In this document: positions 33,039 to 56,943 of the stretch, one piece after another
Position numbering within the stretch: the stretch's first letter is position 1
How the letters are laid out: every line of letters begins with the position of its first letter
Source of the DNA: Candidatus Aminicenantes bacterium
GTDB lineage: Bacteria > Acidobacteriota > Aminicenantia > Aminicenantales > JAFGBC01
Direction: 5' to 3'
Length of the DNA: 64,000 nt
Assembly (NCBI GenBank): GCA_022867325.1
Contig: JALHUR010000084.1
Coordinates: 6,084 to 70,083 of the forward strand
The notes under the pieces: model-generated
Told to the model about the DNA's origin: nothing
Databases searched by the model: none
Seen by the model: the letters and a program-made list of their open reading frames with translations, nothing else
Made by a program: the position numbers and the translations under genes

Positions 33039-33243
33039 GCTGATGGGTGCGCTCGATCCGTTGACGGACGGCGAATCCCCTCCGCGCCATTCCACGGACG
33101 TCAGTCCGTGGAGGGATAGCGTATCGTCGCTTCGGGGACAGGCAGCGGTTTCGCAGTACTCATGAACCGGAAACGGTTCATGGGTGCGCTCCACCGCCTT
33201 CGACGGGCAGATCCCCGGACGTAAGTTCGTGGAGCTTCAGTCC
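33039..33243 (+). repeat. palindromic mosaic repeat, family B copy 1 (tandem units bounded by ccacggacgtNagtccgtgg hairpins)
   Basis: Begins 5 nt after the DUF5107 stop. Contains atgggtgcgctc modules, gaaccgGAAAcggttc and ccacggacgtcagtccgtggag / ccccggacgtaagttcgtggagcttcagt. Confidence 0.7.
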
Positions 33244-38713: not shown

Positions 38714-40806
<2,093 letters not shown>

Positions 40807-40978
40807 GTCGATGCCTCCAAGTCCAACTCGGTAAAAGATTATACATAATACACTAAAACCGCGGCTCTTCTCAAGAACAAAACCGCAAAGTTGACTTCGG
40901 GCCGGAGGATGTGATAAGTGTTGAGCGTACAATGAGTTCGAAAGATGGAGTGAATCGGATCAAGGAGGGAGATCGTCC

Positions 40979-41632
40979 ATGAAAAACCCGAGGATCGCCG
41001 TCTGCGTCTTCGCCGTCCTGGCCGTTTCCGCCGCCTGCGGCGTGAATATGATGCCGTCCAAGGACGCCTGGTATACCCAGCATTATTTCGTGATGCAGGA
41101 CTTCGAACGCCAGGCCTATAAGGACTTTTCGCCCCAGGCGCGGATCGAATTCCAGAAAATTTTCTGGGAAGCCCGCGAGCTCGGCTCGAAGAAAGAGTTT
41201 GAAAAGCGGATGGACTATATCCAGAAAACCTACAAAAGGGACAACAGCCAGCAGCCCTGGAACTGCGACCGGGCCCGAATCTTTCTTCTCAACGGACCTC
41301 CCGCCTCCATCGACTATAAGCAGATGGACGACTGGGCGACCAACGTCACTCAAGGAGCGGCTCGCACCAATGCCTCGACCGACCGGTCAAACGAGGACAT
41401 CTCCGCCACCTCGGCCGAAATCTGGACCTATCCCTACAATAATCAGTTCGTCCAATATGCCTTCGCTTTTAAGCCGCCGAACGAATGGCGGCTGGCCCCG
41501 GCCGCTTTCGCCGGCAACAGGTTTATCGGAGCCCTGGAAGCCCTGAACAAGGAACAAGTGTACGGGGTATTGAATTTAGACCAATATCAACGCCGGATCG
41601 AAGAATTGAAGAAAATTAAGGACGTTAAATAA
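40979..41632 (+). CDS. GWxTD-domain protein (small secreted paralog 1)
   Basis: AGGAGGG RBS and signal peptide MKNPRIAVCVFAVLAVSAACG. Shares the block ...W.[SC][DE]..RI(Y/F)..G.P... with the two downstream GWxTD paralogs. Confidence 0.55.
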   Translation: MKNPRIAVCVFAVLAVSAACGVNMMPSKDAWYTQHYFVMQDFERQAYKDFSPQARIEFQKIFWEARELGSKKEFEKRMDYIQKTYKRDNSQQPWNCDRARIFLLNGPPASIDYKQMDDWATNVTQGAARTNASTDRSNEDISATSAEIWTYPYNNQFVQYAFAFKPPNEWRLAPAAFAGNRFIGALEALNKEQVYGVLNLDQYQRRIEELKKIKDVK

Positions 41633-41645
41633 CGCTCGATTGTTT

Positions 41646-41808
41646 TAATCCCCTTCGAGGGATTCCACGGACGTTAGTCCATGGAGGAACCCCCTTTCGG
41701 GGGCTGGCAGCGATTTTGCAGTGCCCTTGAACCGGAAACGGTTCGTGTGCGCGCTCCGACGCCTGCAAAGGGTAGATCCCATGGACGTAAGTCCGTGGAG
41801 CTTCAGTA
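41646..41808 (+). repeat. palindromic mosaic repeat, family B copy 2
   Basis: Begins 14 nt after the GWxTD1 stop. attccacggacgttagtccatggag ... gaaccgGAAAcggttc ... gcgcgctccgacgcctgcaaagggtagatcccatggacGTAAgtccgtggagcttcagt. Confidence 0.7.
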
Positions 41809-41914
41809 GATGTTCCAAGATTCATTTAATTGGATAAATACATTTTTTTGTATTTCGTTCCCCCCAACGTTTTCCTAAACTATTGAATATATTTAAATTA
41901 TCTTTCCAATTTTT

Positions 41915-41930
41915 TGGCATGAATATTGCT
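41915..41930 (+). promoter_or_regulatory. sigma-54 (RpoN) -24/-12 promoter TGGCAT-N5-TTGCT inside a 300-bp AT-rich island upstream of the TBDR-like gene
   Basis: ttTGGCATgaataTTGCTtaaa matches the TGGCAC-N5-TTGCW spacing exactly. Lies about 190 nt upstream of ATG 42120. Local GC is far below the window average. Confidence 0.4.
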
Positions 41931-42119
41931 TAAATAGATTTGGAAAGAAATGTTTAGGAACTATGAGAGAGGAGGTGAAACAAGCGGGGAATTAACTAAT
42001 CTGGTCAAAGGTTGGAGCGGTTCATTGCAGCCGCTCCTGGTGGGGGGAAAAACGAGTTTTGCTTCTATCCTCAATCCACCGATTGGGAAAGAAGGGTGAA
42101 AAAGGAGAATTTCCAGAGA

Positions 42120-45100
42120 ATGCGTAAATCATGGACTTTAGCTTTGCTTGCGCTCCTCCTGGTCGCCGGATTCGCTTCAGCCCAGGGCCGCCCTGAAGGC
42201 AAGTTCGTCGGCAAAGTCAGCGACGATCAGGGCAACCCGCTCCCCGGCGTCACGGTCGAGGCGATAAGCCCCAAACTGGTCGGTAAAGCGGCGACGGTCA
42301 CGGATCAGACCGGAACCTTCCGGCTGTTCCAGCTGCCTTCCGGGCTGTATGAAATCAACTTCACCCTGCCCGGGTTCAAAACGATGTCCCGTAAGGACGT
42401 CGTCCTGCAGCTGTCGCAGACCGTGACCCTCAACATCACGATGGAGCCGTCCACTCTCGAAGAGACGGTGACCGTCATCGGGATGAGCCCCCTGATCGAC
42501 GTCAAGAGCACGGTCAAGGGCCAGACTATGACGCGGGAAGTGTTCATGAAGCTTCCCAAGAGCCGGAACTTCGACGGCCTGCTGAGCACGGTCCCCGGCG
42601 TTCAGTATGACAACGTCGGAGGCGGCCTGCTGGTCGACGGCGCCACCGGTACCGAGAACATGTGGTACATGGACGGCGCCGACGTCACCCAGCCGCATAT
42701 CGGAACCCGGGCCCAGAGCGTGGTCATGGAGATCATCGAGGAGGTCAAGGTTACGGCCTCCGGGTACAATGCCGAGTTCGGCGGCTCGATGGGCGGCGTC
42801 GTCAACGTCGTCACCCGTTCGGGCGGCAACGCCTTCCACGGCGATGCCATCGGCTATTACGAGGGCAACAGCCGGCTGATGCAAGGCAAAGCCCGCGATT
42901 ACGGCCGCTGGAATCCCTACGACGACGAGATCTATGAGTACGTCAACGAAGACGACCTTTATTTTGACGGCGGCAAGAAGCGGGATGTCTATAATCGCTT
43001 CGAGGGCGTCTTCAACCTGGGCGGCTATATCATGCGGGACAAGCTGTGGTTCTTCGCCTCCTTCAACCCCCAGTACAGCCACCAGACGTTCGACCGGTAC
43101 TTCCTGAGCGAACAGGGCAAGCCGATTCATCAATTCAGGAGAAATTGGAACTGGTGGAACGGCCAGGTCAAGGTAACGGCGGCCCCGCTGGCCGGGATGC
43201 GCTTGAGCGCCAGCTTCGTCAACAATTTTTCCAAGTACAGAGGCGGGGGCAATAACGATCGTAGCGCGAACGGGATGCCGAGCCTCGCCGGCACGAGCAA
43301 CGCCACCTACAAATGGGACCAAGAAGGCTATGACTATCCCAACTGGAGCGCGGCCTTCCTGCTGGACTACAGCATCAGCAACTCCCTGCTGCTGAGCATG
43401 CGCGGCGGCTACCACATGCAGGACACGGCGAACCAGCAGATCAAGAACGACTTCACCACCTATTATTTCAACCAAAGCAACTACGGCTATAAGAGCGACC
43501 CGTTCTTCATTGCGAATCCCAATCTGCTCGGCTACGCCGGAACCGCCAACTATGGCGGCAGCACCATGATCACCGAACGCTACAAATTGGAGAAGTACTC
43601 CGGCAACTTCGACCTGTCCTACTATCTCAACCTGGCCGGCGATCACGCCTGGAAGGCCGGCCTGCAGTGGATCCGCGACGCGGAAGACGTCTTCAACGGC
43701 CGTCCCAAGCCTATGGTCAACATCTATTGGGGCCGCGGATACTACGGCCTGGCCAGCGGCGAGCCCGTTCTGGGCACCTACGGCCATTACGAGATCCGGA
43801 GCGGCTGGACGTCGCCCTACGGCTATGTCTGGAAAATTCAAAGAGACAGCTGGTCCCTCTATCTCCAGGATTCCTGGACGATCGGCAACAAGCTGACCGT
43901 CAACGCCGGTCTCCGGACCGAAAGCGAGTACATCCCGGCCTTCACCGCCGACACGGCCCTGGTAGGCTACCAGGCCAAACCCATCAAGTTCGGTTTCGAC
44001 AAGAAGCTGGCTCCCCGCCTCGGCGCCGTCTATGACGTCTTCGGCGATTCCACCCTGAAGATTTTCGGCAGCTTCGGAATCTACTACGACGTCATGAAGC
44101 TGTACATGGCCGAGGGCGCCTTCGGCGGCTTCAAGTGGAAAACCGACTATTACGAGCTGAACAACCCGAACTACCTCCTGATCGCGGCCAGCGGAACTCT
44201 GGATGATCGGGCCAGTCAGGAAGCGGGTGGACGGTACGTCGGCACCATGGATTGGCGCATCCCCTCCTGGGACACGACCGATCCCGACATGCTGCCCGTC
44301 TCCCAGAGAGAAATCTCGTTGGGCGCCGAGTACAAGCTCGCCGAGAACGTTTCCCTGTCGGCCCGCCTGGTCCAGAAGCACCTCATGCGGACGATCGAGG
44401 ACATCGGAGTCCTGACGCCGGCAGGCGAGATGTACTACAACGCCAATCCCGGTTTCGGGTGGTCTCGCAGCATCAAGAACGGCGGGAAGTTCGACGACAT
44501 GTACTGGGAGTGTCCCAAGGCCACGAGAGAGTACTACGGAATGAACCTCTCTCTCGAAAAGCGGTTCAGCAACAACTGGCAGGGCGGCGTCAACTACACC
44601 CTGAGCCGCGTCGCCGGCAATTACGGCGGCCTGTCGTCCCCCGACGAGGTCAACCGGAACTCCCCGAACGTCGAGCGCTATTTCGACCTCTGGTTCATGG
44701 CCTATGATCTGAAGGGCAATGTCCTCGACGGCCCGCTGCCCCAGGACAGAAGCCACTACGTCAAGGCCTACGGCTCCTACGCCTTCCCGTTCGGGCTGAC
44801 GGTCGGCGTCGTCGGCTATGCCAGAAGCGGCATGCCGTTGACAACCGAGCTCTTTGCCAACAACGTCTCGGGATATTATCCCAACCAGCGCGGCGACCTC
44901 GGCCGCGCGCCCTGGACGGTCTGGGCCGACGTGTACATGGAATACACGTTGAACCTCGGCCGGAACACCCTCAACTTCAACGTCCAGATAAACAACATCA
45001 CCAACACCAAGACGTGGCAGTGGTACAACAACCGCATCAACAGACTCTCCATGCGCATCACCGACGAGGAGATCCTGAGCAAGACGTTCGACTGGCAGTC

Positions 45101-45197
45101 CAGGGTCGCCGACTACTGGCCCAACGCTTCGTTCAACAAGCCGAGCTGGCAGTTCGGAACCTGGTCGGCCCGCGTCGGCACCCGGTTCTCGTTCTAA
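42120..45197 (+). CDS. TonB-dependent receptor-like outer membrane protein with N-terminal carboxypeptidase-regulatory-like domain
   Basis: AAGGAG RBS and signal peptide MRKSWTLALLALLLVAGFASAQG. CarbopepD_reg-like block GKVSDDQGNPLPGVTVEAISP...TGTFRLFQLPSGLYEINFTLPGFK. Plug-like region, then about 1025 aa barrel ending ...VGTRFSF. Confidence 0.75.
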   Translation: MRKSWTLALLALLLVAGFASAQGRPEGKFVGKVSDDQGNPLPGVTVEAISPKLVGKAATVTDQTGTFRLFQLPSGLYEINFTLPGFKTMSRKDVVLQLSQTVTLNITMEPSTLEETVTVIGMSPLIDVKSTVKGQTMTREVFMKLPKSRNFDGLLSTVPGVQYDNVGGGLLVDGATGTENMWYMDGADVTQPHIGTRAQSVVMEIIEEVKVTASGYNAEFGGSMGGVVNVVTRSGGNAFHGDAIGYYEGNSRLMQGKARDYGRWNPYDDEIYEYVNEDDLYFDGGKKRDVYNRFEGVFNLGGYIMRDKLWFFASFNPQYSHQTFDRYFLSEQGKPIHQFRRNWNWWNGQVKVTAAPLAGMRLSASFVNNFSKYRGGGNNDRSANGMPSLAGTSNATYKWDQEGYDYPNWSAAFLLDYSISNSLLLSMRGGYHMQDTANQQIKNDFTTYYFNQSNYGYKSDPFFIANPNLLGYAGTANYGGSTMITERYKLEKYSGNFDLSYYLNLAGDHAWKAGLQWIRDAEDVFNGRPKPMVNIYWGRGYYGLASGEPVLGTYGHYEIRSGWTSPYGYVWKIQRDSWSLYLQDSWTIGNKLTVNAGLRTESEYIPAFTADTALVGYQAKPIKFGFDKKLAPRLGAVYDVFGDSTLKIFGSFGIYYDVMKLYMAEGAFGGFKWKTDYYELNNPNYLLIAASGTLDDRASQEAGGRYVGTMDWRIPSWDTTDPDMLPVSQREISLGAEYKLAENVSLSARLVQKHLMRTIEDIGVLTPAGEMYYNANPGFGWSRSIKNGGKFDDMYWECPKATREYYGMNLSLEKRFSNNWQGGVNYTLSRVAGNYGGLSSPDEVNRNSPNVERYFDLWFMAYDLKGNVLDGPLPQDRSHYVKAYGSYAFPFGLTVGVVGYARSGMPLTTELFANNVSGYYPNQRGDLGRAPWTVWADVYMEYTLNLGRNTLNFNVQINNITNTKTWQWYNNRINRLSMRITDEEILSKTFDWQSRVADYWPNASFNKPSWQFGTWSARVGTRFSF

Positions 45198-45236
45198 GCT
45201 CGAGCTGAAGCAGGACACGCAGAAGTAGAAGCACAA

Positions 45237-45273
45237 ACCCCGTCCCGCCCTTCGGCGGGGCGGGGTTTTTTTT
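45237..45273 (+). terminator. rho-independent terminator after the TBDR-like gene
   Basis: ccccgtcccgcc-cttc-ggcggggcgggg followed by T8. Confidence 0.8.
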
Positions 45274-45286
45274 GTCGTCTCTTTCA

Positions 45287-45424
45287 CCCGTTCGCCGACG
45301 CTACGCCGCCCTGAAAGGCGGGGACGAGAAGCGAGGCTCAGGGTTAACTTCCGCGCTTCGGGGACAGGCGCTCCAACACCTGCAAAGGGCAGATCCCACG
45401 GACGTAAGTCCGTGGAGCTTCAGT
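45287..45424 (+). repeat. composite repeat: family A copy 3 fused to a short family B copy 3
   Basis: cacccgttcgccgacgctacgccgccctgaaaggcggggacgagaagcgaggctcagggttaac | ttccgcgcttcggggacaggcgctccaacacctgcaaagggcagatcccacggacGTAAgtccgtggagcttcagt. Confidence 0.7.
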
Positions 45425-45557
45425 TCGCTTGTTTCAGATTGCCGATTAGTAGCGAGAATCAGCGGGAGCCTCAAGGGGGTATAATTTTCGGCTACCGCAA
45501 AATTTAAAACGCTTCCCGCTGACGACCTATCTCATTGATATAAAATAAGATATGATT

Positions 45558-45596
45558 AAAGAAAACCGAGGAATCGAAAACGATCTCGGTCCGATC
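45558..45596 (-). terminator. putative terminator for the minus-strand sulfatase/TPR/GWxTD operon
   Basis: Minus strand: ccgagatcgttttcgattcctcgg followed by ttttctttaat. Confidence 0.35.
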
Positions 45597-45616
45597 TTAG
45601 CTGAAGCCCTCTTCCT

Positions 45617-47875
45617 TCACTTAGAGGGATTAGCTTCAAGCCTCTGAAGTTCGGCCCGGGCGGCCCGGATGCTCTTTTCAGGCTCGCCCCGCGGATCGTC
45701 CAGGTATAATTTCAGATAACGGACGGCCTCTCCGAAATCGCCCGTCTTACGGTAAGCGGTCGAAAGGTTATAATAAGCGGTAGGCGTGGGTTTCAGATAA
45801 ACGGCCTGTTTCAGGCTCTCGATCGACTTGGCGTAATCGCCGGAAAAGCCGTAGGCGATGCCCAAATACTGGAATAGGACCTGATCCTCCGGATAATCCA
45901 GGGTGAGCTCCTCGTAAGTCTCGATCGCTCGGTCGAGCCGTCCGCTCGAAGCCAGGTTGTTGGCGTAGCTCATGCGCAGGTACTTGTTTTCGGGCTCGAT
46001 GGCAATGGCCCGCTCGTAGAACGACCGCGCTTCGTCCTTGCGCCGCAGCGTATCCAGGACTCCGGCCGTGACCGTCAAGGCGTCCACATTCTTGGGGTTG
46101 ATCCTCAGAACCTCGGCCATCGTATCCAGCGCTTCTCCGAGGCGGTTGGTGACGAGATAGGTGTGCCCGAGTCGGGCCAGCAGGATCTCCGAGCCGGGGA
46201 TTTTTTTTATACCCGATTTCAGGGTTTGAACGGCCTCGTCGAATTTACCCCGGCGCGCCCGGCTCAGGGCCAGGTTGACGTAGGACGCCGGCGCGTCGGG
46301 AATGAGGTCCAGGAGTCGCTCATAGACGGCGGCCGCTTCGGCGTATCGCCCCTGGAATTCGAATCCCTCGGCCTGTTGAGTCAGACGCAGGACATCGGTT
46401 TTATCCTTGGGGTCGGGATAGGACGCGCGGGCGCCTCCGTCCGAGAAACTCGTGTATCCCAGCGAACGCAGGCGCTCCTGGACCTCGGCCGAGGGGGTTC
46501 GCCCCCCGGCCGACGCCAAGCCGGCGCCCGCCTTGACCAGCTCCTCCAGACGGGCATTCAGGTCCGAGGCCCGTTTGGCCGCCGAGGCGATGAGATTCCT
46601 GTTCTCGCCGGGATCGGCCGCCAAGTTGTAGAGCTCGGGCTTGGGAGCCCGGATGAACTTCCAATCCCCCCGGACCAGTCCGACGAGCTCCGACCAACCG
46701 TAGTTCTCCCTGGGATAGAAAGTTTCCAGATAAATGTCCAGGTCCTCGCGGCTTCGTCCCTCGATCGCGGGAATCAGGCTCTCCCCGGTCGTTCCGGCCG
46801 GCGCGGGAATTTCCAGGATATCCAGGATGGAAGGCATGATATCGATCAGCCGGACCCGGGATTTGACGACGGCCCGGGGAGGGATGCGATGATCGGCCAG
46901 GATTATCAGGGGGACCCGCATCGTCCCGTCATAGATAAAGATACCGTGCCCGGTCTCGACCTTCTCCCCGAAGGCCTCCCCGTGGTCTCCGGCCAGAACG
47001 ATCAGGGTCTTGTCCCGCAGCCCCTTCTCGGCGAGCTTGTCGACGACCCGGCCGACGTGAAAATCCATGAAAGCGACCTCTCCATCGTAGGGATCGGCGG
47101 CGAACTCCTCGCTGTAGGGCGGGGGGGGCTGGTAAGGAAGATGGGGGTCGAAAAAATGGACCCAAGCGAAAAATTGCGCATCGGCGTTCCGATCGAGCCA
47201 GCTCGAAAAAACGGCGCTGATCTGATCCGCTTTCCGCTCGGAGTTCAGCGGCTTGAAGGGAAGTCCGGTCTGAAAATTGTCGTCGTAGACGTCGAATCCC
47301 TGGCCGAGCCCGAACCTGGAATCGACCGAGAAGGAGGCTACAAAGGCGGCGGTCCGGAACCCCGCATTCTTAAGGACTTCGGCCAAGGTCTCCCACCCGG
47401 TCGCAAGCTCGTAGCTGCCGTTGTTGTGAACGCCGTGGGAGACCGGCGTCAACCCGGTCATGATCGAGCAATGCGAGGGGAGGGTCAGCGGAGCCGGGCA
47501 ATAGACGTTTTCAAACCGGACTCCCTTTCCGGCCAGACCGTCGATGTTCGGGGTCCTGCCCTTGGAATATCCGTAACAGCCGAGCCGGTCGGCCCGGGTT
47601 GTGTCCAGAGTGATGAGCAAAACGTTCAGCCGACCGTCCTTTTGGATTCGGGTCCGGCCGCCGGGACTGAAAACCACGAAAAGCGCTGCCGCCAGAGCCA
47701 TCACTCCGACGGCGATGAACGGGAGTTTCGAGACCGGGCGTTTTCGGGCCTCTCTCCCGCCGGCGAGCCGGGGAGCGGCCGGACCCGAGCGGCCGACCTG
47801 CGGACACGGCGCGCCGCTGGGATTGGGATCCGTCCGGCTCCTTCCGCGGCGGCGGGAGCGTCTTTTTTTTCCCAT
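45617..47875 (-). CDS. sulfatase-like hydrolase/transferase (alkaline-phosphatase superfamily) fused to C-terminal TPR repeats, N-terminal membrane anchor
   Basis: 752 aa. TM segment LPFIAVGVMALAAALFVVF. AP-superfamily core (LLITLDTTRADRLGCYGY...DHGE). No canonical CxPxR sulfatase motif. TPR-like C-terminal third. Confidence 0.7.
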   Translation of the reverse strand: MGKKRRSRRRGRSRTDPNPSGAPCPQVGRSGPAAPRLAGGREARKRPVSKLPFIAVGVMALAAALFVVFSPGGRTRIQKDGRLNVLLITLDTTRADRLGCYGYSKGRTPNIDGLAGKGVRFENVYCPAPLTLPSHCSIMTGLTPVSHGVHNNGSYELATGWETLAEVLKNAGFRTAAFVASFSVDSRFGLGQGFDVYDDNFQTGLPFKPLNSERKADQISAVFSSWLDRNADAQFFAWVHFFDPHLPYQPPPPYSEEFAADPYDGEVAFMDFHVGRVVDKLAEKGLRDKTLIVLAGDHGEAFGEKVETGHGIFIYDGTMRVPLIILADHRIPPRAVVKSRVRLIDIMPSILDILEIPAPAGTTGESLIPAIEGRSREDLDIYLETFYPRENYGWSELVGLVRGDWKFIRAPKPELYNLAADPGENRNLIASAAKRASDLNARLEELVKAGAGLASAGGRTPSAEVQERLRSLGYTSFSDGGARASYPDPKDKTDVLRLTQQAEGFEFQGRYAEAAAVYERLLDLIPDAPASYVNLALSRARRGKFDEAVQTLKSGIKKIPGSEILLARLGHTYLVTNRLGEALDTMAEVLRINPKNVDALTVTAGVLDTLRRKDEARSFYERAIAIEPENKYLRMSYANNLASSGRLDRAIETYEELTLDYPEDQVLFQYLGIAYGFSGDYAKSIESLKQAVYLKPTPTAYYNLSTAYRKTGDFGEAVRYLKLYLDDPRGEPEKSIRAARAELQRLEANPSK

Positions 47876-47919
47876 GGGACTGCCTGGTGGCGAGTGACGG
47901 CGGGCCGGCTCCGGACCCT

Positions 47920-48870
47920 TTATTTCTTGATGGAATCCAGGATGGCTCTGGCCTGGGCGGCCTTTTCGGCGTTGGACTCGAGCTTGATATACGCCTCGAG
48001 AGATTCGGCCGCCTTGGCCATGTCGCCCTTGTTGAGGTGGACGTACCCCATCTTGAGATAGGGATCGGGCCAGTCCGGCTTGATCCGGATGGCCAGATCG
48101 AAATACCGGACGGCCTCGTCGATCTGCTGATTGGAAAAACAGATCTCGCCCACGTTGTAGGCCAGATTCTCGTCCTGGGGATCGGTTTCGATCGACTGCT
48201 TGAAGTAGTTCTGGGCTTCGCTGAGGTTGTTCTGCCGCAAATAACAGAGTCCGACGGCGGCCAGCGCCTTGGCCGTCATGTTTTTCCCCATCGACGCGTC
48301 GTTCTTGGCCCGCTCGATAACCGTGTTGTAGTCGGCGATAGCTTTTTCGTATTCGGCCTTTTCCCGACGGCAGTCGCCGATATTGAGGATGACCTGATAG
48401 ACCGCGGGGTTTTTCTCCAAGAATTGCTCAAACATGAGGCGCGCCGTGTTGTACTTGCCGTCCGCGTAGAAAGCGTTGGCATCATCCAGGAGCTGCAAAG
48501 AGGAATCATCCTGAACCAGGCCGGACGACTTTTCGACCCTGGTCAATTTGACGTTCAGCCGGGGATTTTTGTCCAGCTGCCTGACGTAGTAGCTGACGCT
48601 AGCCGGCAGGTAACCCTCGGCGGAGGCCGTGATCGTCCAATTGCCGGTGCCGAGCCCGATGATCGACCACTCGCCCTTGTCGTTAGCGGTCGCTTCCTTC
48701 TTGACTCCGCCATCCTGCTGGAACTCGGCCAGGATCTTCGCGTCCGGGATCGGATTGCCGGCCAGGTCCTCGACGTTTCCGACCAGACGCGCTAATCCCA
48801 TCCCAGCCTGAGCCGAGGCGGTTCCGGCCGTCAGCACGACCGCGACCGCGATCGCGGCCGCGATTCTCAA
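47920..48870 (-). CDS. secreted TPR-repeat protein with carboxypeptidase-regulatory-like N-terminal domain
   Basis: Track ORF 47920..48903. Likely TTG start at 48870 giving signal peptide MRIAAAIAVAVVLTAGTASAQA. CarbopepD-like block LVGNVEDLAGNPIPDAKILAEF, then TPR repeats. Confidence 0.55.
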   Translation of the reverse strand: MRIAAAIAVAVVLTAGTASAQAGMGLARLVGNVEDLAGNPIPDAKILAEFQQDGGVKKEATANDKGEWSIIGLGTGNWTITASAEGYLPASVSYYVRQLDKNPRLNVKLTRVEKSSGLVQDDSSLQLLDDANAFYADGKYNTARLMFEQFLEKNPAVYQVILNIGDCRREKAEYEKAIADYNTVIERAKNDASMGKNMTAKALAAVGLCYLRQNNLSEAQNYFKQSIETDPQDENLAYNVGEICFSNQQIDEAVRYFDLAIRIKPDWPDPYLKMGYVHLNKGDMAKAAESLEAYIKLESNAEKAAQARAILDSIKK

Positions 48871-48916
48871 CCCGTTTTCATTTTCATCCTCTCCTCCCTG
48901 CACTCGGCGTTATCAA

Positions 48917-49819
48917 TTATAAAACAAGTTTCGCCTTTTTTTCAATGCGAGCCCCGGGAAAAACGTTAAGAAGCGTAATGCGGAGATCATACTCTCCCCG
49001 AGGAAGTTTGATCGGAACCTTGATTAGGTACGTCTCTCCGCGGATTTTCATGAATTCATCCTTGGAGAACGAGAGCGGATAGCTCTGCTCTTCCTGCCAA
49101 GCCCGCGCTCCGGCGGCGTCGGTCGCTTCGACCGAGAGTCGAAGCGTCGTCGTCATCCGGTCGCCGTCGAGATTGAGCCAGATATCCTTGTAGGGAAGCT
49201 TAACCAGGACGATGGCCTCCCCCGGCCCGGCCTTTTGAATTTCCAACAGCACGTCCTTCATCCAGGAATCCGAGCCGACCTTCGGCCTGAGCATGACCTG
49301 GGTCTTGGTCATTTCGCCGATCTGGGCGGCGCTCTGCGGATCGAGCCGGTAGTTGCCGGTCCAGTTGTCGTCGACGAACATGACGGGGAAGAAACCGTAA
49401 TACCAGACCTCGGTCGGTTTCCCATAGAAAGTGACTCCGCGCGGATAGGTCACCCGGTTCTCGGGCGGTCCGAGCGTAATATACAGCCTGCCCCGTTCGC
49501 TCATCCAGCCGGGTGTCGTCCCCTCCTTGAACAGGAAATTGGCCCCGTCGATCCGGGCGAAATATTCGATCTTGAACTCGTTGGCCTCGGTGTCCGGGTC
49601 GGGATCCCGCTTCTTCCAGAAATCCTCGCTAAAGGCCTTTCGGTCTTCCGGATCGGCCAAACCGAGGAAGGCCGTTCGTTCGTCTTTGCCGATCAGGTAG
49701 CGGACCTTGGACAGGAATTCCCTGCTTTCGGGGTCGAGAGAACCCAGCGCCGGCCGCAAGAAGCAGGCCAAGCTCAGGCAGATGCCCGCCAACACCAGCC
49801 CCCAACCTGTTTTCCTCAT
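48917..49819 (-). CDS. GWxTD-domain protein (paralog 2)
   Basis: Start ATG 49819 (MRKTGWGLVLAGICLSLACFL) forms an ATGA overlap with the upstream gene stop. Motif GTTPGWMSERGRLYITLGPP. Confidence 0.55.
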   Translation of the reverse strand: MRKTGWGLVLAGICLSLACFLRPALGSLDPESREFLSKVRYLIGKDERTAFLGLADPEDRKAFSEDFWKKRDPDPDTEANEFKIEYFARIDGANFLFKEGTTPGWMSERGRLYITLGPPENRVTYPRGVTFYGKPTEVWYYGFFPVMFVDDNWTGNYRLDPQSAAQIGEMTKTQVMLRPKVGSDSWMKDVLLEIQKAGPGEAIVLVKLPYKDIWLNLDGDRMTTTLRLSVEATDAAGARAWQEEQSYPLSFSKDEFMKIRGETYLIKVPIKLPRGEYDLRITLLNVFPGARIEKKAKLVL

Positions 49820-51882
49820 TTTTTTTCCTTGTGCGACTTGACCACAGCCTTGATCGTGTCCTGATTGGGGTTGATCTCGAGAGATTTTTCGTAGGCGAGC
49901 AGGGCCTCGGGAATATTGACCAGCTGGCGGTAGCAATCTCCTATGCTGTTGAGAATATTCAAGTTGGTCCCGAGGCGAACAAGATAGTCCTTGTAATACG
50001 CGATGGCCTCCGCGAATTCGCCCAAGGCATGCGAGGATTGGCCGAGGAGCTCCAAGAAATCAAACTTCTGCATGTCCCTGACGAAGGGCAGGGCGATTGT
50101 CTTTACCTGGAGATAGTCCTGGGCCTTATACAGGAACCGGCAGTAATCGAGGGCGAAGGCCGGAGAAGCCGGATCCTTGCGGTAGGCTTGTTCGAGGTAG
50201 GCGCGGGCCTTGGTGGTATCCTTCACGTTCATGTACTGGATGCCCAAGGCGTTGAGCGTCTCGGCATCGTCGTCGGCCGGCTTGGGCATTGACAAAATCC
50301 AGGGCCGGGGCAGCGTCGGCACGTAGCTGATGTAGAAAAGGGCCTTATCCGAGAGAAGAACGGTTTGGCCTCCGTCGGACAGCGTGGCCGTGATTTCGTA
50401 GTTGGCCGGCGCGAGATCGGCCAGGCTGAATAGCTCCAGAATATTGAGCGGGTCGGGGATGTCGGCCAGTTTCCGTGTCCTCGACAGGAGCTTGGCGTCT
50501 CCCCTATGGAGCGCGAACTCCAGGCTGCCGTTCCGGCGAAGGTCCCCGCCCAAGCCCTGGAGTTGGATGAAAACGAAAAGCGTGTCCTTTGCGGTAAAAT
50601 CGTGCCGGGGGGAGGGAATGAGCTGGGCGCGCCCCAGCAGGAAAGGCTTGTTCTGGCCGACGTATTTCGAGTTCACGTCGGCCCGGCTGGCCAGCAGGAT
50701 CGGGCTCATTCTAAGATCCGCCCTATCCGGAACGGTGATCTCGGATTCCAACGAGGTGAATTCCTTGGAAACGGTGTTCTTGAAGAGAATGCTCAATTTG
50801 TAGCGCCCGGCGATGAGCGGCAGCATATCCTGGAAGCTGAAGAGCTTAGGACGGATCGCCGCGATCTGATCCCGGTTCATTTCGATCGGGGCCTTGCGCT
50901 CGAATTGATAGACAAGATTCCCGTTGGGGTCCGTGACGTTGCCGTTGATCTCGAGGTTGGACAGGAACCGATTATCGTACTGCTCGAAGGTTAGGCGGGC
51001 CGGCTCGATCAGATAGTGGACATAGAACAGACCGGTCGCATCCTGGAAGACCCGGACGAGGGCGTCGGAGTCCATGTAGTTGGCCGAGTACTCGACGTCG
51101 ATGATGTCTTTAAGGGCCAGCAGCTTTTCGGCATAGGAATCCTTGACCTTGACCATGGGGGCCATGGGGATTTTCTGATGGACGAGGGCCTCCGAGGCGA
51201 TCGAGGGGCTGGTGACATTTTGTGTTTCCCCTTCGATCAGGGTCAGAGAGATGTGGGCGATCGACGGTTCGATCCGGAACAACTGGTCGTAGGCCGTTGC
51301 GTATTCCGTCATGTCCCCGCTGTAATGGGGCATCAGGTACTGGGGGCCGAACCTGATCGGAGTGTACAGCTCGTACTCGCCGACGCCGTCCTTCTTGAAG
51401 AAGACGACGGAGAAGGCGTTGGGCAAACCGAACTCAAGCATCCCGCTGTAGAACCAGATTTCGATCGGATAGACCTCGCTCCGGTTATCGAAGCGATCGG
51501 TCGAATTCGGCTCGCCCAGCGTGATGTAGATCCGTCCCTGGTCCGACCGCCAGCCCGGCCCCGGAGAGCTCTTGCCGTAGCGTTCGTTGGCGAAGGCGAT
51601 CCGGCGCATGTGTTCGATCTTGAATTCGTTTTCGGGTGTCGCCGGGTTCGGGTCCCGCTGCTTCCAGAAGGCCTCGATGAACATCTCCCGCTGCCGGTCG
51701 TTGTCGAGCTGGAGGAAAACCTCTTTTTCCTTGGCGGTAATGATGAAAACCACCTCTTCCTGCAGCCATTTCCGGTAGAAAGGGCCCAAGTCCTTGACGG
51801 ACTTCTTCGTCTGCGCAAAGGTAGATATAATCGTAAAGACGGCAACCGCCCCGAGAACGCTGAGGACGAGGGTTTTCTTCAT
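49816..51882 (-). CDS. GWxTD-domain protein fused to C-terminal TPR repeats (paralog 3)
   Basis: Start set at ATG 51882 to give signal peptide MKKTLVLSVLGAVAVFTIISTFAQT (track ORF extends to 51960). Motif GPGWRSDQGRIYITLGEP. TPR-like C-terminus. TATAAT lies 8 nt upstream of the ATG. Confidence 0.55.
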   Translation of the reverse strand: MKKTLVLSVLGAVAVFTIISTFAQTKKSVKDLGPFYRKWLQEEVVFIITAKEKEVFLQLDNDRQREMFIEAFWKQRDPNPATPENEFKIEHMRRIAFANERYGKSSPGPGWRSDQGRIYITLGEPNSTDRFDNRSEVYPIEIWFYSGMLEFGLPNAFSVVFFKKDGVGEYELYTPIRFGPQYLMPHYSGDMTEYATAYDQLFRIEPSIAHISLTLIEGETQNVTSPSIASEALVHQKIPMAPMVKVKDSYAEKLLALKDIIDVEYSANYMDSDALVRVFQDATGLFYVHYLIEPARLTFEQYDNRFLSNLEINGNVTDPNGNLVYQFERKAPIEMNRDQIAAIRPKLFSFQDMLPLIAGRYKLSILFKNTVSKEFTSLESEITVPDRADLRMSPILLASRADVNSKYVGQNKPFLLGRAQLIPSPRHDFTAKDTLFVFIQLQGLGGDLRRNGSLEFALHRGDAKLLSRTRKLADIPDPLNILELFSLADLAPANYEITATLSDGGQTVLLSDKALFYISYVPTLPRPWILSMPKPADDDAETLNALGIQYMNVKDTTKARAYLEQAYRKDPASPAFALDYCRFLYKAQDYLQVKTIALPFVRDMQKFDFLELLGQSSHALGEFAEAIAYYKDYLVRLGTNLNILNSIGDCYRQLVNIPEALLAYEKSLEINPNQDTIKAVVKSHKEKK

Positions 51883-51970
51883 TTGATTATTATAGGCAAT
51901 ATTCGTCGCTTCTTCAAGAAGCTTCCGATCCGCCGCCTGCATCCGATGAGTCTGGGACAAGGGCCGCCGA

Positions 51971-53696: not shown

Positions 53697-54169
53697 GCCG
53701 GTTTTCTCCTGAAAAGAACGATAAGGAGGAGGCAGGCGCCGATCGAAATGCAGGAATCGGCGAGGTTGAAGATCGGCCAGTGCCAGCGCTTGATGTAGAC
53801 GTCCATGAAGTCGATGACCGAGCCGCGCAGGATCCGGTCGACGTTGTTGCCGACGGCCCCGGCCAGGATCAAGGACAACGCGGCCAGCATCAGGACGTCC
53901 CGGCCCGGAGTCTTTATGAAATAGAAGACGACCAGCCCCAGGGCCAGGAAAGACGCCAGGGCCAGAATCCAGCGAAAGGCCGGGTTTCCGGCGTGGGACA
54001 GAAAGCCGAAGATGGCCCCGTCGTTGCGATTATAGGTAAGGTTGATAAACCCCCGGATGATGGGCCGGCTTTCATAGAGGGTCATGCTCTTGGCGATCAG
54101 GGACTTGGTCCATTGGTCCAGGACGACCGTAAGGCCGATCAATCCCAGGGCGAGTCCTTTCCGTTTCAC
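53693..54169 (-). CDS. lspA: lipoprotein signal peptidase II
   Basis: GTG start at 54169 overlapping the ileS TGA (GTGA). LspA motifs NRNDGAIFGF, FNLADSCISIG. Track ORF extends further upstream but would overlap ileS. Confidence 0.75.
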   Translation of the reverse strand: MKRKGLALGLIGLTVVLDQWTKSLIAKSMTLYESRPIIRGFINLTYNRNDGAIFGFLSHAGNPAFRWILALASFLALGLVVFYFIKTPGRDVLMLAALSLILAGAVGNNVDRILRGSVIDFMDVYIKRWHWPIFNLADSCISIGACLLLIVLFRRKPA

Positions 54170-56943
54170 GTCCGATTCCCTTCCAGGACTCCGGAGCAGC
54201 GACTGCAGCAGTTGGGAAAAGCCTTGGACAAGCCGACCGTCGTTGCGTAGTTCCAGCAGCGCTCGCATTTCTCCCCCGGGGCCCGGCCGACCCGGACCTC
54301 CAGCTCCGGGCCTCCCCCCTCCCCGAGCGTCACGGCCGAAACGATGAACAGGGCCGGGAGGGCGGCCTCGTGCTTTCGGAGAAGCCCGAGCTGGGCTTGG
54401 GGCGCGGCCAGGCTCAGCGACGCCTCGAGCGAATTCCCGATGAGTTTGTCCACACGGGCCTTCTCGAGCTCCTTGAGGACCTTCTCCCGGACGGCCATCA
54501 GAGCTTCCTGTTCGTTGAAGGGGTCCGGTTCGAGCCATCTTTCCTCGAAAGCGGGAAACAATCCCAAGTGGACGGACTCCGTTTTGCCGGAGAAAGCCGG
54601 CATGGCCTCCCAGGCCTCTTCGGTCGTGAAGGGGAGGATGGGCGCCATGAGGGCCAGCGTATCCTTAAGGATCCGGAACAGGGCCGTCTGGGCCGAACGC
54701 CTAAGGCGCGACTTTTTGGCCGAGCAGTAGAGCCGGTCCTTGATGATGTCGAGATAGACGGCGCACATCTCGACCGTGAAGAACTGGTAAAGGGAGTGGA
54801 AAACGACGTGGTACTCATAGTCTTGGTACCCCTGCAGGATGCGTCGGCCGGTCCGGGCCGTCGTCTCCAGCGCCCAGCCGTCGAAGATCTCCATCTCGGC
54901 GGCCGGGACGGCATCGGCGGCCGGGTCGAAATCGTAGAGGTTGCCGAGCAAGTAGCGCCAGGTGTTGCGGATCTTGCGGTAGGCCTCGACCAGGCGCTGG
55001 AGGATCTCGGTCCCGAACCGGGCGTCCTCCTTGAAGTTCAGCATGGCGACCCACAGCCGCAGGATCTCCGCCCCGTTCTGGGCGATGATCCGGCCGGGAT
55101 CGATGACATTCCCCATCGATTTCGACATCGCCCTCCCCTGCTCGTCCAGGACAAAGCCGTGGGTGATGCAAGTCCGGTAGGGCGATCCGCCTTTGGCTCC
55201 GACTCCGATCACGATCGAGCTGTTGAACCAGCCCCGGTACTGGTCGTGACCCTCGACGTAGACGTCGGCGGGCCAGGGCAGGTCGGGCCGTTTGCCCAGT
55301 TCGCCTTGGCTGGCCCCGGATTCGAACCAGACGTCGATGATGTCGTTGGCTTTTTCGAACTCCGCGGCGCCGCAGGAGGCGCAGGACGTTCCCCGGGGGA
55401 TGAGATCCCCGGCCGGCTTGATGTACCAGGCGTTCGAACCCTCCCTTGAAAAGACATCGGCGACGTGGCGGGCGATGCTGTCGCCGGCCACGACGGCCCC
55501 GCATCGGACTCAGTGAAAGGCCGGGATGGGTACGCCCCACAGGCGCTGGCGCGAGATGCACCAGTCGGGGCGGCCGCTCATCATATTGGCGATCCGCTCC
55601 TCGCCCCAGGCCGGAATCCAGCGGACCTTGCCGACCGCTGCCTGGGTTCGATCCCTCAGGCCGGCCGCGTCCATCGAGATGAACCATTGCTCGGTGGCCC
55701 GGAAGATGACGGGGTTCTTGCAGCGCCAGCAGTGGGGGTAGGAGTGGCTGATGGCTGTTTCCTTGAGGAGGCTCCCGTCCTTCTTCATGTCTTCGCTGAT
55801 GGGCTTATTGGCCTTGAAAACGTTGAGGCCGGCGTACTTGGCGACGTCGGGCGTGAAGTTCCCGGCGCCGTCGACGGGCGTGTAGATGTCGAGGCCGTAA
55901 GCCATGCCGGTCAGATAGTCGTCGTGGCCGTGTCCGGGCGCGGTGTGTACGGCGCCCGTCCCGTCCTCGAGAGTCACGTAATCGCCCAGGACGAAGACCG
56001 ATTCCCTGTCGATGAAGGGATGGCGGGCCTTGAAGCCCTCGAGTTCGCCGCCCAGGAAAGTCGCCAGGAGCTTAGTTTCCTTGAATCCGAGCTCTTCGGC
56101 CACCACCGGGACGAGGCGCTTGGCCAGGAGATAAACTTCGGCGCCGACCTCGACGGCCGCGTACTCGTGCTCGGGATGGAAGGCGATGGCCAGGTTGGCC
56201 GGCAGGGTCCAGGGCGTCGTCGTCCAGATCAGGACGTAGACCGTCTTTCCTTTGAGGGCCGGCGCTTTGGCGGACAGGTCGGAGACGACCGGAAACCGGA
56301 CGTAGATCGAAGGCGACGTCTTGTCCCTATACTCGATCTCGGCCTCGGCCAGGGCCGTTTGACAGTGGAAGCACCAATGGACCGGCCGCTTCCCTTTATA
56401 GACATTGCCCGAGGCAAAGAAAGCGGCCAGGTAGCGAATCGTCTCGGCCTCGTACTCGGGATTCATGGTCAGGTAGGGCGTTTCCCATTCGCCCAGGACG
56501 CCCAGCCGGATGAATTCGGAGCGCTGGATGTCGATGTATTGAAGGGCGTACCGCCGGCACTCTTCGCGGATCTGGGTGATCGACATGGATTTCTTTGCGT
56601 CGCCCAACTGCTTGTCGACCTGGATCTCGATCGGCAGGCCGTGGCAGTCCCAGCCGGGCAGGTAGGCGGCCTGGAATCCCTGCATGCTCTTGGTCTTGAC
56701 GATAAAATCCTTTAGGATCTTGTTGAGGGCCGTCCCGAGGTGGATGTGGCCGTTGGCGTAGGGAGGCCCGTCATGGAGGACGAAGCAGGGGCGGCCTTTC
56801 CGGGATTCCAGGATTTTCTTGTAGAGACCGATGGCGTCCCAGGCCTTGATGATTTCGGGTTCGTTCTGGGCCAGCTTGGCCTTCATCGAGAAAGACGTCT
56901 GGGGCAGGTTCAGGCTGAGCTTGAGATCCTTGTCGTCCGACAT
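54166..56943 (-). CDS. ileS: isoleucine--tRNA ligase, interrupted by a single in-frame TGA at 55510-55512
   Basis: ORFs 55510..56943 (HIGH-region half: PYANGHIHLG) and 54166..55491 (KMSKS half: KMSKSMGNV, C-terminal Zn-finger CERCW...CSRC) are in the same frame, 926 codons in total, with a coherent link ...WGVPIPAFH*VRCGAVVAGDSIARHVADVF. The stop sits where many IleS sequences have Cys (FYCExCG). Confidence 0.85.

What the first reader, a model, noticed from the sequence alone, without database searches (positions are those of the whole stretch)
41820..42119. AT-rich 300-bp island with a perfect-spacing sigma-54 promoter upstream of the CarbopepD-type TonB-receptor-like gene
In a window of about 65% GC, the leader of the 1025-aa TBDR-like gene is strikingly AT-rich. 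It contains ttTGGCATgaataTTGCT (41915-41930), matching the RpoN -24 GG / -12 GC elements with canonical spacing, about 190 nt upstream of the start codon. Sigma-54 promoters need a bacterial enhancer-binding protein, and a long AT-rich, bendable upstream region is typical. No bEBP gene is in the window, so the regulator is encoded elsewhere. The leader also contains an imperfect hairpin gagcggttcattgcagccgctc close to the RBS.
Basis: seen in the sequence. Interest (0 to 1): 0.55.

Follow-up and report, generated by a model that had tools for sequence, protein, structure and literature searches.

The report
Conserved sigma-54 promoter with translated leader
The AT-rich stretch in front of this outer-membrane transporter gene is very likely a real sigma-54 promoter with an upstream activator site, kept almost unchanged across uncultured Aminicenantes bacteria, and it is followed by an unexpected short upstream reading frame whose role is unknown.

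Summary
Window 41820-42119 is the most AT-rich 300 nt of the window (37% GC against 61%). It carries TGGCATGAATATTGCT (41915-41930), one mismatch from the sigma-54 consensus.

Comparison with relatives makes a strong case:
- In 26 of 27 Aminicenantes orthologue loci (57-81% protein identity) and five further contigs, TGGCA and TTGC are invariant with exact spacing, while the spacer varies.
- A double dyad (ATYCA-N6-TGGAT) sits at a fixed -96 nt from the promoter, centred about -114 and -96 from the predicted start site. This is the usual place for an enhancer-binding protein.
- The same 17-mer precedes glnA and amtB in unrelated metagenome bacteria.
- No sigma-70-type promoter is conserved.

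I could not search the genome for rpoN or the activator. Neither lies in the window or within 10 kb of the gene in two relatives.

The leader is more than an untranslated region. A 32-65-codon upstream ORF is open in 31 of 31 orthologues. It contains a near-invariant AGGAGGTGA box found nowhere else in about 400 kb, then a positioned hairpin, and it ends at the main ribosome-binding site.

The promoter is a new member of a known kind. The translated leader is the unusual part.

The parts
41820..41835 (.). Upstream dyad 1, ATTCATTTAATTGGAT (family consensus AATCCAAT-N2-4-ATTGGATT). Candidate enhancer (UAS) half, centred about -113.5 from the predicted start site.
   Evidence: T[CT]CA-N6-TGGA is present 60-140 nt upstream of the promoter in 25 of 27 sequences, and at exactly -96 (+/-1) in 20 of them. 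Only about 10 such sites occur elsewhere in 322 kb. Alignment A2 has invariant columns at T41831, G41832 and A41834.
41838..41853 (.). Upstream dyad 2, ATACATTTTTTTGTAT (perfect 7-6-7 palindrome over 41836-41855), centred about -95.5 and 18 bp from dyad 1.
   Evidence: Invariant columns T41839, C41841, A41842, G41850 and A41852 across 28 sequences. It is a full second palindrome in L001, L002, L013, L016, L017 and L024, and half-conserved (GTCCAAAA) in the main clade.
41876..41889 (.). Conserved AT-rich block (TAA-N4-TTGAATA), a possible IHF-type bending site about -60 from the predicted start site.
   Evidence: The block TAA..(TTG/CAC)ATAATAAA is conserved in alignments. The minus strand 41876-41888 matches WATCAANNNNTTR with one mismatch. 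The same position scores 0-1 mismatches in 7 loci, but overall this is no better than shuffles. Inconclusive.
41915..41930 (+). Sigma-54 type -24/-12 promoter TGGCATGAATATTGCT (GG 41916-41917, GC 41928-41929).
   Evidence: TGGCA and TTGC are invariant in 26 aligned sequences (2.0 bits each column), the spacer is variable, and flanking columns carry under 0.6 bits. The motif is present in 26 of 27 orthologue loci.
41941..41941 (+). Predicted transcription start (12 nt after the C of the -12 GC), +/- 2 nt. Inferred, not mapped.
   Evidence: Inference from the standard geometry of sigma-54 promoters (own knowledge). No transcript data are available.
41950..42099 (+). Conserved upstream ORF, 49 codons (MFRNYERGGETSG...), stop TGA 42097-42099, which ends 20 nt before the main ATG.
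   Evidence: There are 0 stops in this frame in 27 of 27 sequences, against 77 and 51 stops in the other two frames. It is also open in L039, L049, L071 (GTG start) and L149. The peptide is not conserved.
41970..41978 (+). Near-invariant Shine-Dalgarno-like box AGGAGGTGA inside the upstream ORF, with no start codon after it.
   Evidence: Invariant columns in alignment A1. All 26 occurrences of the nonamer in about 400 kb of Aminicenantes DNA are in this leader, and none is elsewhere. Close relatives read it in two different frames.
42014..42037 (+).
   Evidence: -14.7 kcal/mol. A comparable stem starts 33-40 nt after the box in most loci, with different arm sequences. Whole-leader stability is not above shuffles (z = -0.03).
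42102..42122 (+). Main ribosome-binding site AAGGAG (42102-42107) and start codon ATG (42120-42122).
   Evidence: A signal-peptide-like N-terminus MRKSWTLALLALLLVAGFASA begins at the same point in the orthologues.
42120..45197 (+). Gene for a 1025-aa Oar-type TonB-dependent transporter (CarboxypepD_reg N-terminal extension, Plug, 22-strand-type barrel).
   Evidence: Pfam hits. There are 768 homologues with E <= 1e-50, and all of the best 120 listed are at least 58% identical. No relative has a solved structure by sequence search.

Best explanation
The AT-rich island is the regulatory region of an Oar-type outer-membrane transporter gene, and its core is a sigma-54-dependent promoter.

Proposed mechanism:
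1. RNA polymerase carrying sigma-54 binds TGGCAT-N5-TTGCT (41915-41930) as a closed complex.
2. An ATP-hydrolysing enhancer-binding protein, encoded elsewhere, binds the two dyads centred about 114 and 96 bp upstream of the start site.
3. The conserved AT-rich block between them lets the DNA bend or loop.
4. The activator opens the complex, and transcription starts near 41941.

The roughly 180-nt leader is then probably translated from an ATG about 10 nt into the transcript. Ribosomes run through a perfect anti-Shine-Dalgarno-binding box and a positioned hairpin, and terminate at or next to the main ribosome-binding site. This would tie expression of the transporter to ribosome traffic on the leader.

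Shown: the sequence elements, their invariance, their fixed geometry and the open frame.
Inferred: sigma-54 binding, the activator, the start site, translation of the upstream ORF and its effect.
For: Promoter:
- It has one mismatch to the consensus and exact GG-N10-GC spacing.
- It is present 160-245 nt upstream of the orthologue in 26 of 27 loci of 57-81% protein identity. It is also present in L039, L049, L065 (46% identity), L071 and L149.
- TGGCA and TTGC carry 2.0 bits per column, while spacer and flanks vary.
- Only 4 other matches to TGGCA[CT]-N5-TTGC occur in 348 kb on both strands. One of them is the missed orthologue site in L025.
- The single exception, L006, has a 9-nt deletion relative to the near-identical contig L049, which keeps the promoter.

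Enhancer:
- The dyad T[CT]CA-N6-TGGA lies at -96 +/-1 from the promoter in 20 of 27 sequences and is present in 25 of 27. About 10 sites occur elsewhere in 322 kb.
- It stays with the promoter whatever the upstream gene is.

Same sequence in known sigma-54 contexts:
- The exact 17-mer TTGGCATGATAHTTGCT lies 50-130 nt upstream of glnA, amtB and a type III glutamine synthetase gene in unrelated metagenome contigs.

No competing promoter:
- The sigma-70 scan finds nothing on the + strand in 40800-42300.

Leader:
- The upstream ORF is open in 27 of 27 sequences, against 77 and 51 stops in the other frames.
- The box is unique to this leader.
- The hairpin keeps its position.
Against: - rpoN and bEBP genes could not be searched for in this genome or in any Aminicenantes genome with the tools available. 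None lies in the window, in the 28 loci or within 10 kb in L149 and L150.
- No transcript or start-site data exist.
- The IHF-type site is no better than chance in most loci.
- The dyad spacing of 18-20 bp and the dyad sequence match no characterised activator that I can name.
- No paper links Aminicenantes with sigma-54.
- For the leader: the upstream ORF has no evident Shine-Dalgarno sequence if transcription starts at 41941, the whole leader is not more stable than shuffles, and the 46%-identical homologue L065 keeps the promoter and box but not the long ORF.
Confidence: 0.85

Rival explanations
1. Chance match: an AT-rich intergenic region happens to contain a sigma-54-like string that has no function.
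For: Taken alone, a hit with at most one mismatch appears in 24 of 100 shuffles of the window. A weaker second match sits 210 nt upstream, at 41705.
Against: The same motif is at the same place in 26 of 27 orthologue loci, with invariant core bases and a variable spacer. The 41705 match lies inside a repeated element and is not kept in its other copy.
Confidence: 0.01
2. The conserved block belongs to a sigma-70-family promoter (TTGGCA as a -35 element) or is the operator of an ordinary transcription factor. It only resembles a sigma-54 site, and the dyads bind a classical activator or repressor.
For: TTGGCA matches TTGACA in 5 of 6 positions. The sigma-54 machinery is not demonstrated in this lineage. 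The dyads could bind any dimeric regulator.
Against: No -10-like hexamer lies 16-18 bp after TTGGCA in the window or in the family consensus (reading). The sigma-70 scan finds nothing on the + strand. Invariant TTGC would fall in a sigma-70 spacer, where invariance is not expected. The block is not a dyad, as most operators are. The identical 17-mer precedes glnA and amtB elsewhere.
Confidence: 0.07
3. The sigma-54 site is real but secondary. Most transcription of the transporter gene comes from another promoter or from read-through of the upstream GWxTD gene, and the conserved leader is the main control point.
For: In the window clade the upstream gene is co-directional. No intrinsic terminator is detected in 40800-42300. 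The leader features are as strongly conserved as the promoter.
Against: In other clades the upstream gene differs or is divergent, yet the promoter and dyads remain. No other promoter-like block is conserved between the dyads and the leader.
Confidence: 0.07

Closest known systems
Enhancer-dependent sigma-54 promoters with an intervening bending site (for example glnAp2 with NtrC, nifH with NifA and IHF, Pu of the TOL plasmid with XylR and IHF). Recalled from my own knowledge. General mechanism in PMC7057263 and PMC3162934.
   Same: The -24 GG and -12 GC elements have exact spacing and the extended consensus TGGCAYG-N4-TTGCT. Two dyad-symmetric sites lie about 95-115 bp upstream of the start. 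An AT-rich stretch lies between them. The activator gene is not adjacent.
   Different: The dyad sequence (AATCCAAT..ATTGGATT) matches no characterised activator site known to me. The target is an outer-membrane transporter in an uncultured class. The IHF site is not convincingly present. Nothing has been tested biochemically.
Oar subclass of TonB-dependent transporters (Myxococcus xanthus Oar, needed for PopC secretion; PMC6434023).
   Same: The domain order is the same: signal peptide, CarboxypepD_reg N-terminal extension, Plug, large beta-barrel.
   Different: No close sequence relationship to Oar was tested. The substrate and direction of transport are unknown. The genes nearby (GWxTD proteins, a sulfatase-TPR protein, a CarboxypepD_reg-TPR protein) are different.
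STAB-SD and ribosome-protected 5' regions of Bacillus mRNAs (cryIIIA STAB-SD recalled from my own knowledge; hbs in PMC5737220).
   Same: A Shine-Dalgarno-like sequence with maximal complementarity to the 16S rRNA 3' end lies far upstream of the main start codon. It is not followed by a start codon, and it sits in the 5' part of a long leader.
   Different: Here the box lies inside a conserved open reading frame, 21-30 nt after that frame's start codon. The organism is a diderm acidobacterium. No stability data exist.
Regulatory leader ORFs and translational coupling, meaning upstream ORFs whose translation matters rather than their peptide (general class, recalled from my own knowledge).
   Same: The start codon and the open frame are conserved while the peptide is not. 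The stop codon lies in or next to the main ribosome-binding site or start codon (CTAGGAGG, ATGA, TAATG).
   Different: There is no terminator/antiterminator pair. There is no run of regulatory codons. An internal invariant SD-like box and a hairpin at a fixed distance are not features of the classical examples.

Membership tests
Sigma-54 (-24/-12) promoter | GG and GC dinucleotides separated so that they fall at -24 and -12 (GG-N10-GC) | tested here: met
   GG is at 41916-41917 and GC at 41928-41929. The spacing is the same in all 26 aligned sequences.
Sigma-54 (-24/-12) promoter | Extended consensus YTGGCACGr-N3-TTGCW | tested here: met
   15 of 16 specified positions match in the window. The family consensus is TTGGCATGATAcTTGCTaa.
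Sigma-54 (-24/-12) promoter | Intergenic, correctly oriented, upstream of a gene, and kept in orthologous positions | tested here: met
   26 of 27 orthologue loci plus 5 further contigs.
Sigma-54 (-24/-12) promoter | Genome encodes sigma-54 (rpoN) | not testable with these tools
   No RpoN box in the window or in any of the first 28 loci. The prior from PMC3162934 is that sigma-54 is nearly universal in LPS-containing diderms.
Sigma-54 (-24/-12) promoter | Upstream activator sequence for a bEBP, usually dyad-symmetric and 80-150 bp upstream | tested here: met
   Two dyads are centred at about -114 and -96, with fixed phasing (-96 +/-1 from the promoter) in 20 of 27 sequences. The binding protein is unknown.
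Sigma-54 (-24/-12) promoter | Dependence on ATP hydrolysis by a bEBP, and a start site 12 nt after the -12 GC | not testable with these tools
   This needs transcript mapping or in vitro transcription.
IHF-assisted sigma-54 promoter | Match to WATCAANNNNTTR between the enhancer and the promoter | tested here: inconclusive
   The window has a one-mismatch site at 41876-41888 (-). Seven loci have 0-1 mismatches at the same position. The main clade has 2-3 mismatches, and most loci are no better than shuffles.
Oar-type TonB-dependent transporter | CarboxypepD_reg N-terminal extension, Plug domain and TonB-dependent beta-barrel | tested here: met
   PF13620 at 1e-16, PF07715 at 1.2e-5 (above its cut-off), PF25183 at 2.3e-27. 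PF00593 is below its cut-off. The definition is taken from PMC6434023.
Oar-type TonB-dependent transporter | TonB box in the plug | not tested
   Not examined.
STAB-SD-type mRNA stabiliser | SD-like sequence in the 5' leader that does not serve a start codon | tested here: met
   AGGAGGTGA at 41970-41978. No ATG, GTG or TTG lies 4-12 nt downstream in the window or in relatives.
STAB-SD-type mRNA stabiliser | Lies in untranslated RNA and stabilises the mRNA | tested here: not met
   The box lies inside a conserved ORF. Stability cannot be tested here. I therefore do not file it as STAB-SD.
Leader-ORF (attenuation-type) control | Conserved short ORF in the leader | tested here: met
   The frame is open in 27 of 27 sequences, with 77 and 51 stops in the other frames. 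Four more loci are also open.
Leader-ORF (attenuation-type) control | Alternative terminator and antiterminator structures | tested here: not met
   No intrinsic terminator in 40800-42300. No consensus fold was found. The leader fold z-score is -0.03.
Known RNA families (Rfam 15) | Match to a curated covariance model | tested here: not met
   No hit at gathering score in the window. Only a chance-level miRNA hit (E = 4.6) in 41550-42200.

The most novel reading that the evidence does not exclude
The leader may be a previously undescribed control device that is conserved across the class. In this reading, a sigma-54 transcript begins with an almost leaderless upstream ORF whose peptide is irrelevant. 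Its translation carries ribosomes over an invariant, perfectly anti-SD-complementary box (AGGAGGTGA), followed 33-40 nt later by a hairpin, and it ends on the main ribosome-binding site. The box would pause or capture ribosomes and so set how often the transporter gene is translated or how long the mRNA survives. That would add a translational gate to an enhancer-dependent promoter for an envelope protein.
Probability: 0.35. Interest if true: 0.65.

Novelty: new member of a known kind. Interest (0 to 1): 0.45.

Why it matters
Aminicenantes are abundant, uncultured and have no genetics. A promoter, an enhancer site and a leader conserved in every orthologue give the first concrete handle on gene regulation in this class.

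- The dyad can be used to search for the cognate activator and its regulon.
- The promoter can be tested in a surrogate host with a promiscuous activator.
- The result fits the proposal that sigma-54 governs the cell exterior.
- The translated leader with an invariant anti-SD-binding box may be a new way of coupling ribosome traffic to expression of an outer-membrane protein. If so, it is directly testable with reporter fusions.

Tried and rejected
- Rfam search of the window and of the leader: nothing.
- Consensus folding of the MAFFT leader alignment: no pairs, because the hairpin region aligns badly. A second alignment of box-to-hairpin segments also failed to bring the arms into register. 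I therefore built no covariance model, and the hairpin evidence stays qualitative.
- Whole-leader stability is not above shuffles.
- IHF consensus test: inconclusive.
- A bEBP in the window: the only ESELFGH match is antisense to ileS. Large unannotated ORFs carry other domains or none.
- A bEBP next to the orthologues: none within 4 kb in 28 loci or within 10 kb in L149 and L150.
- The metagenome scan with the promoter 17-mer was meant to reveal other genes of the same regulon. It returned mostly other phyla. It was useful only as a control (glnA, amtB) and for four more homologous loci of the transporter gene, one only 46% identical.
- A second sigma-54-like site upstream of the neighbouring CarboxypepD_reg-TPR gene in L016 is not kept in the window or in L150 and fits the chance expectation.
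- I considered programmed frameshifting (SD-like box plus hairpin) and dropped it. There is no conserved slippery sequence, the spacing is wrong, and there is no second conserved frame.
- I considered a start codon served by the box and dropped it. None is present.
- Literature searches for Aminicenantes with sigma-54 or RpoN found nothing.

Full report
**Observation.** TGGCATGAATATTGCT lies at 41915-41930 on the + strand. It differs from TGGCACG-N4-TTGCW at one position and has the exact GG-N10-GC geometry. It is the only match with at most one mismatch in the 64-kb window. That by itself is weak, because a quarter of shuffled windows contain one. The 300 nt at 41820-42119 have 37.0% GC, the lowest of any 300-nt window. 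The lowest value elsewhere is 45.3%. The window average is 61.1%, not 65%. The gene that starts at 42120 encodes 1025 aa with a CarboxypepD_reg N-terminal domain, a Plug domain and an OMP_b-brl_4 barrel. This is the architecture of the Oar subclass of TonB-dependent transporters (PMC6434023). The hairpin is real (42014-42037, 9 bp, -14.7 kcal/mol), but it ends 65 nt before the ribosome-binding site.

**Origin and relatives.** The protein has hundreds of close homologues. All of the best 120 listed are at least 58% identical, and the sources that name them call them Aminicenantes, Acidobacteria or Latescibacteria. A scan of species-representative genomes returned 28 orthologue loci of 57-81% identity. 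Their records are titled Aminicenantes, Acidobacteria, uncultured Eubacteriales or simply uncultured bacterium.

**The promoter is a phylogenetic footprint.**
- TGGCA[CT]-N5-TTGC lies 163-245 nt upstream of the start in 25 of the 27 loci that have upstream DNA.
- L025 has it too, once the true gene start is recognised.
- The one exception, L006, differs from a near-identical metagenome contig (L049) by a 9-nt deletion that removes the -24 element.
- When the sequences are lined up on the motif, TGGCA and TTGC carry 2.0 bits in every column. The spacer varies (GAATA, GATAC, ATATC, AAAAT, GTTAA, GAACC), and the flanks carry under 0.6 bits.
- Across 348 kb, both strands, only four other matches exist. 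They are the L025 site, two at a homologous antisense position inside the gene, and one stray site in L016.
- The architecture is also present in L039, L071, L149 and a 46%-identical homologue, L065.

**An enhancer-like element at fixed distance.**
- Alignment A2 shows a conserved AATCCAATTWWTTGGATT dyad followed by a second, partly degenerate dyad.
- In the window they are ATTCATTTAATTGGAT (41820-41835) and ATACATTTTTTTGTAT (41838-41853).
- T[CT]CA-N6-TGGA lies 60-140 nt upstream of the promoter in 25 of 27 sequences, and at exactly -96 +/-1 in 20 of them. About ten such sites occur in the other 322 kb.
- With the start site predicted at 41941, the dyad centres fall near -114 and -96. This is the usual range for bacterial enhancer-binding proteins.
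- The dyads stay with the promoter whether the upstream gene is a co-directional GWxTD gene, a different gene, or a divergent one.
- Between dyads and promoter lies a conserved AT-rich block, TAA-N4-(TTG/CAC)ATAATAAA. It matches the IHF consensus well in the window and six other loci at the same position, but it is no better than shuffles in most. I treat bending as plausible and IHF as unproven.

**Controls and rivals.**
- The sigma-70 scan finds no candidate on the + strand between 40800 and 42300, and it finds no intrinsic terminator.
- Reading TTGGCA as a -35 element fails. No -10-like hexamer follows at 16-18 bp in the window or in the consensus, and the invariant TTGC would lie in the spacer.
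- An exact-match scan of metagenomes with the family 17-mer, TTGGCATGATAHTTGCT, mostly hit other phyla. Among those hits it lies shortly upstream of a glutamine synthetase gene, an ammonium transporter gene and a type III glutamine synthetase gene, which are textbook sigma-54 targets.
- The weaker match at 41705 belongs to a repeated element and is not kept in its other copy.

**What could not be shown.**
- No bEBP or rpoN signature occurs in the window or in the 28 loci.
- The lone ESELFGH is antisense to ileS.
- The large ORFs tested carry other domains or none.
- Nothing lies within 10 kb of the orthologue in two long contigs.
- I could not scan a whole Aminicenantes genome, so the presence of sigma-54 rests on a prior. 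[quoted passage not shown]
- No paper in the library links Aminicenantes to sigma-54.

**The leader is probably translated.**
- A conserved ATG lies about 10 nt after the predicted start site (window 41950, GTG in L071). It opens a frame of 32-65 codons that runs through the whole leader and stops between -39 and +8 of the main ATG. The stop often falls inside CTAGGAGG or overlaps the start as ATGA or TAATG.
- In 27 of 27 sequences this frame has no stop before the last 40 nt. The other two frames hold 77 and 51 stops and are open in only 2 and 4 sequences. Shuffles of each segment keep the frame open in 5-25% of trials.
- L039, L049, L071 and L149 also keep it open. The distant L065 does not.
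- The peptide is not conserved beyond M-[KRC]-N-[HT]-x-I-[FL].
- Close relatives (L008 against L012, L026 against L028) read the most conserved nucleotides, AGGAGGTGA, in different frames, as EEVR or RGGE.
- That nonamer is exact in 24 of the 27 sequences and has a one-base variant in the other three. It is complementary to the 16S rRNA 3' end and has no start codon after it.
- It occurs 26 times in about 400 kb of Aminicenantes DNA, always in this leader.
- A GC-rich hairpin begins 33-40 nt after it in most loci, with different arm sequences in different clades.
- The leader as a whole is not unusually stable (z = -0.03 in the window, mean about -1.3 across loci).
- No Rfam family matches.
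- I could not obtain a formal covariation statistic, because the alignments do not bring the arms into register.

**Mechanism.** I commit to enhancer-dependent sigma-54 transcription from about 41941, at 0.85. It would be driven by an unidentified activator bound to the two dyads. For the leader, the most likely reading is that translation of the upstream ORF matters and the peptide does not. Translation would keep ribosomes on the long leader, melt the hairpin and deliver ribosomes to the main start. The box would act at the RNA level as a ribosome-binding or pausing site. This is inference only. Its weak point is that the upstream ORF has no evident Shine-Dalgarno sequence if transcription starts where predicted.

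**Comparison and novelty.** The promoter works like, and passes the sequence tests for, a sigma-54 promoter with an upstream activator sequence. The biochemical criteria are untested. It is a new member of a known kind, in a lineage where nothing was known. The leader resembles STAB-SD in having a non-initiating SD-like element, but it fails the criterion of lying in untranslated RNA. It resembles leader-ORF control, but it lacks terminator and antiterminator structures. It may be a new variant, and I give that 0.35.

Noticed in passing
window 41950-42099 (+): A conserved upstream ORF of 49 codons lies in the leader. It is open in 31 of 31 orthologues of at least 57% identity, while the other two frames carry 77 and 51 stops. 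The peptide is not conserved. The stop lies at or next to the main ribosome-binding site.
   Followed up: yes
window 41970-41978 (+): The box AGGAGGTGA is complementary to the 16S rRNA 3' end and is not followed by a start codon. It is read in two different frames in close relatives. All 26 copies found in about 400 kb of Aminicenantes DNA are in this leader.
   Followed up: yes
window 41633-41806, 33050-33243, about 45402-45440; L150 2977-2995: A repeated intergenic element of about 175 nt with 21-nt terminal inverted repeats (TCCACGGACGTTAGTCCATGG / CCATGGACGTAAGTCCGTGGA) and internal hairpins, resembling a MITE or REP element. The copy upstream of the enhancer is an insertion that the closest relative (L021/L150) lacks. 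It has no Rfam match.
   Followed up: partly
window 41705-41720 (+): A second, weaker sigma-54-like string, TGGCAGCGATTTTGCA. It lies inside the repeated element, and the copy at 33050 does not keep it. It is probably chance.
   Followed up: yes
window 55510-55512 (- strand), inside ileS (56943..54166): The isoleucyl-tRNA synthetase gene is interrupted by an in-frame TGA exactly where the first Cys of a C-x-x-C motif is expected (…IPAFH*VRCG…). The same frame continues after it. This could be a sequencing error, a pseudogene or selenocysteine.
   Followed up: partly
L016 10528-10544 (- strand): TTGGCATGAAGATTGCG lies 22 nt upstream of the neighbouring 327-aa CarboxypepD_reg-TPR gene. The site is not present at the homologous place in the window (48904-48916) or in L150. 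One stray hit is about what chance predicts.
   Followed up: partly
L017 3798-3845: The -12 half of the promoter and the following bases are tandemly duplicated: CACGTTAATTGCTATTAATAG occurs twice. This gives a second TTGC without a matching TGGCA.
   Followed up: no
L006 about 3880 compared with L049: The only orthologue without the -24 element has a 9-nt deletion (TTGGCATGATAA replaced by TTA) relative to a near-identical metagenome contig. This is either an assembly error or a strain that has lost the promoter.
   Followed up: partly
window 40979-51960; L016, L149, L150: The transporter gene has conserved neighbours: GWxTD-domain proteins, a CarboxypepD_reg-TPR protein of about 325 aa and a sulfatase-TPR protein of about 750 aa. 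In L149 a SurA-like isomerase and a small beta-barrel protein are also nearby. This suggests an envelope-related gene neighbourhood.
   Followed up: partly
L093, L140, L106 (metagenome contigs from other organisms): The exact promoter 17-mer of the Aminicenantes family lies 50-130 nt upstream of glnA, amtB and a type III glutamine synthetase gene in unrelated bacteria.
   Followed up: yes
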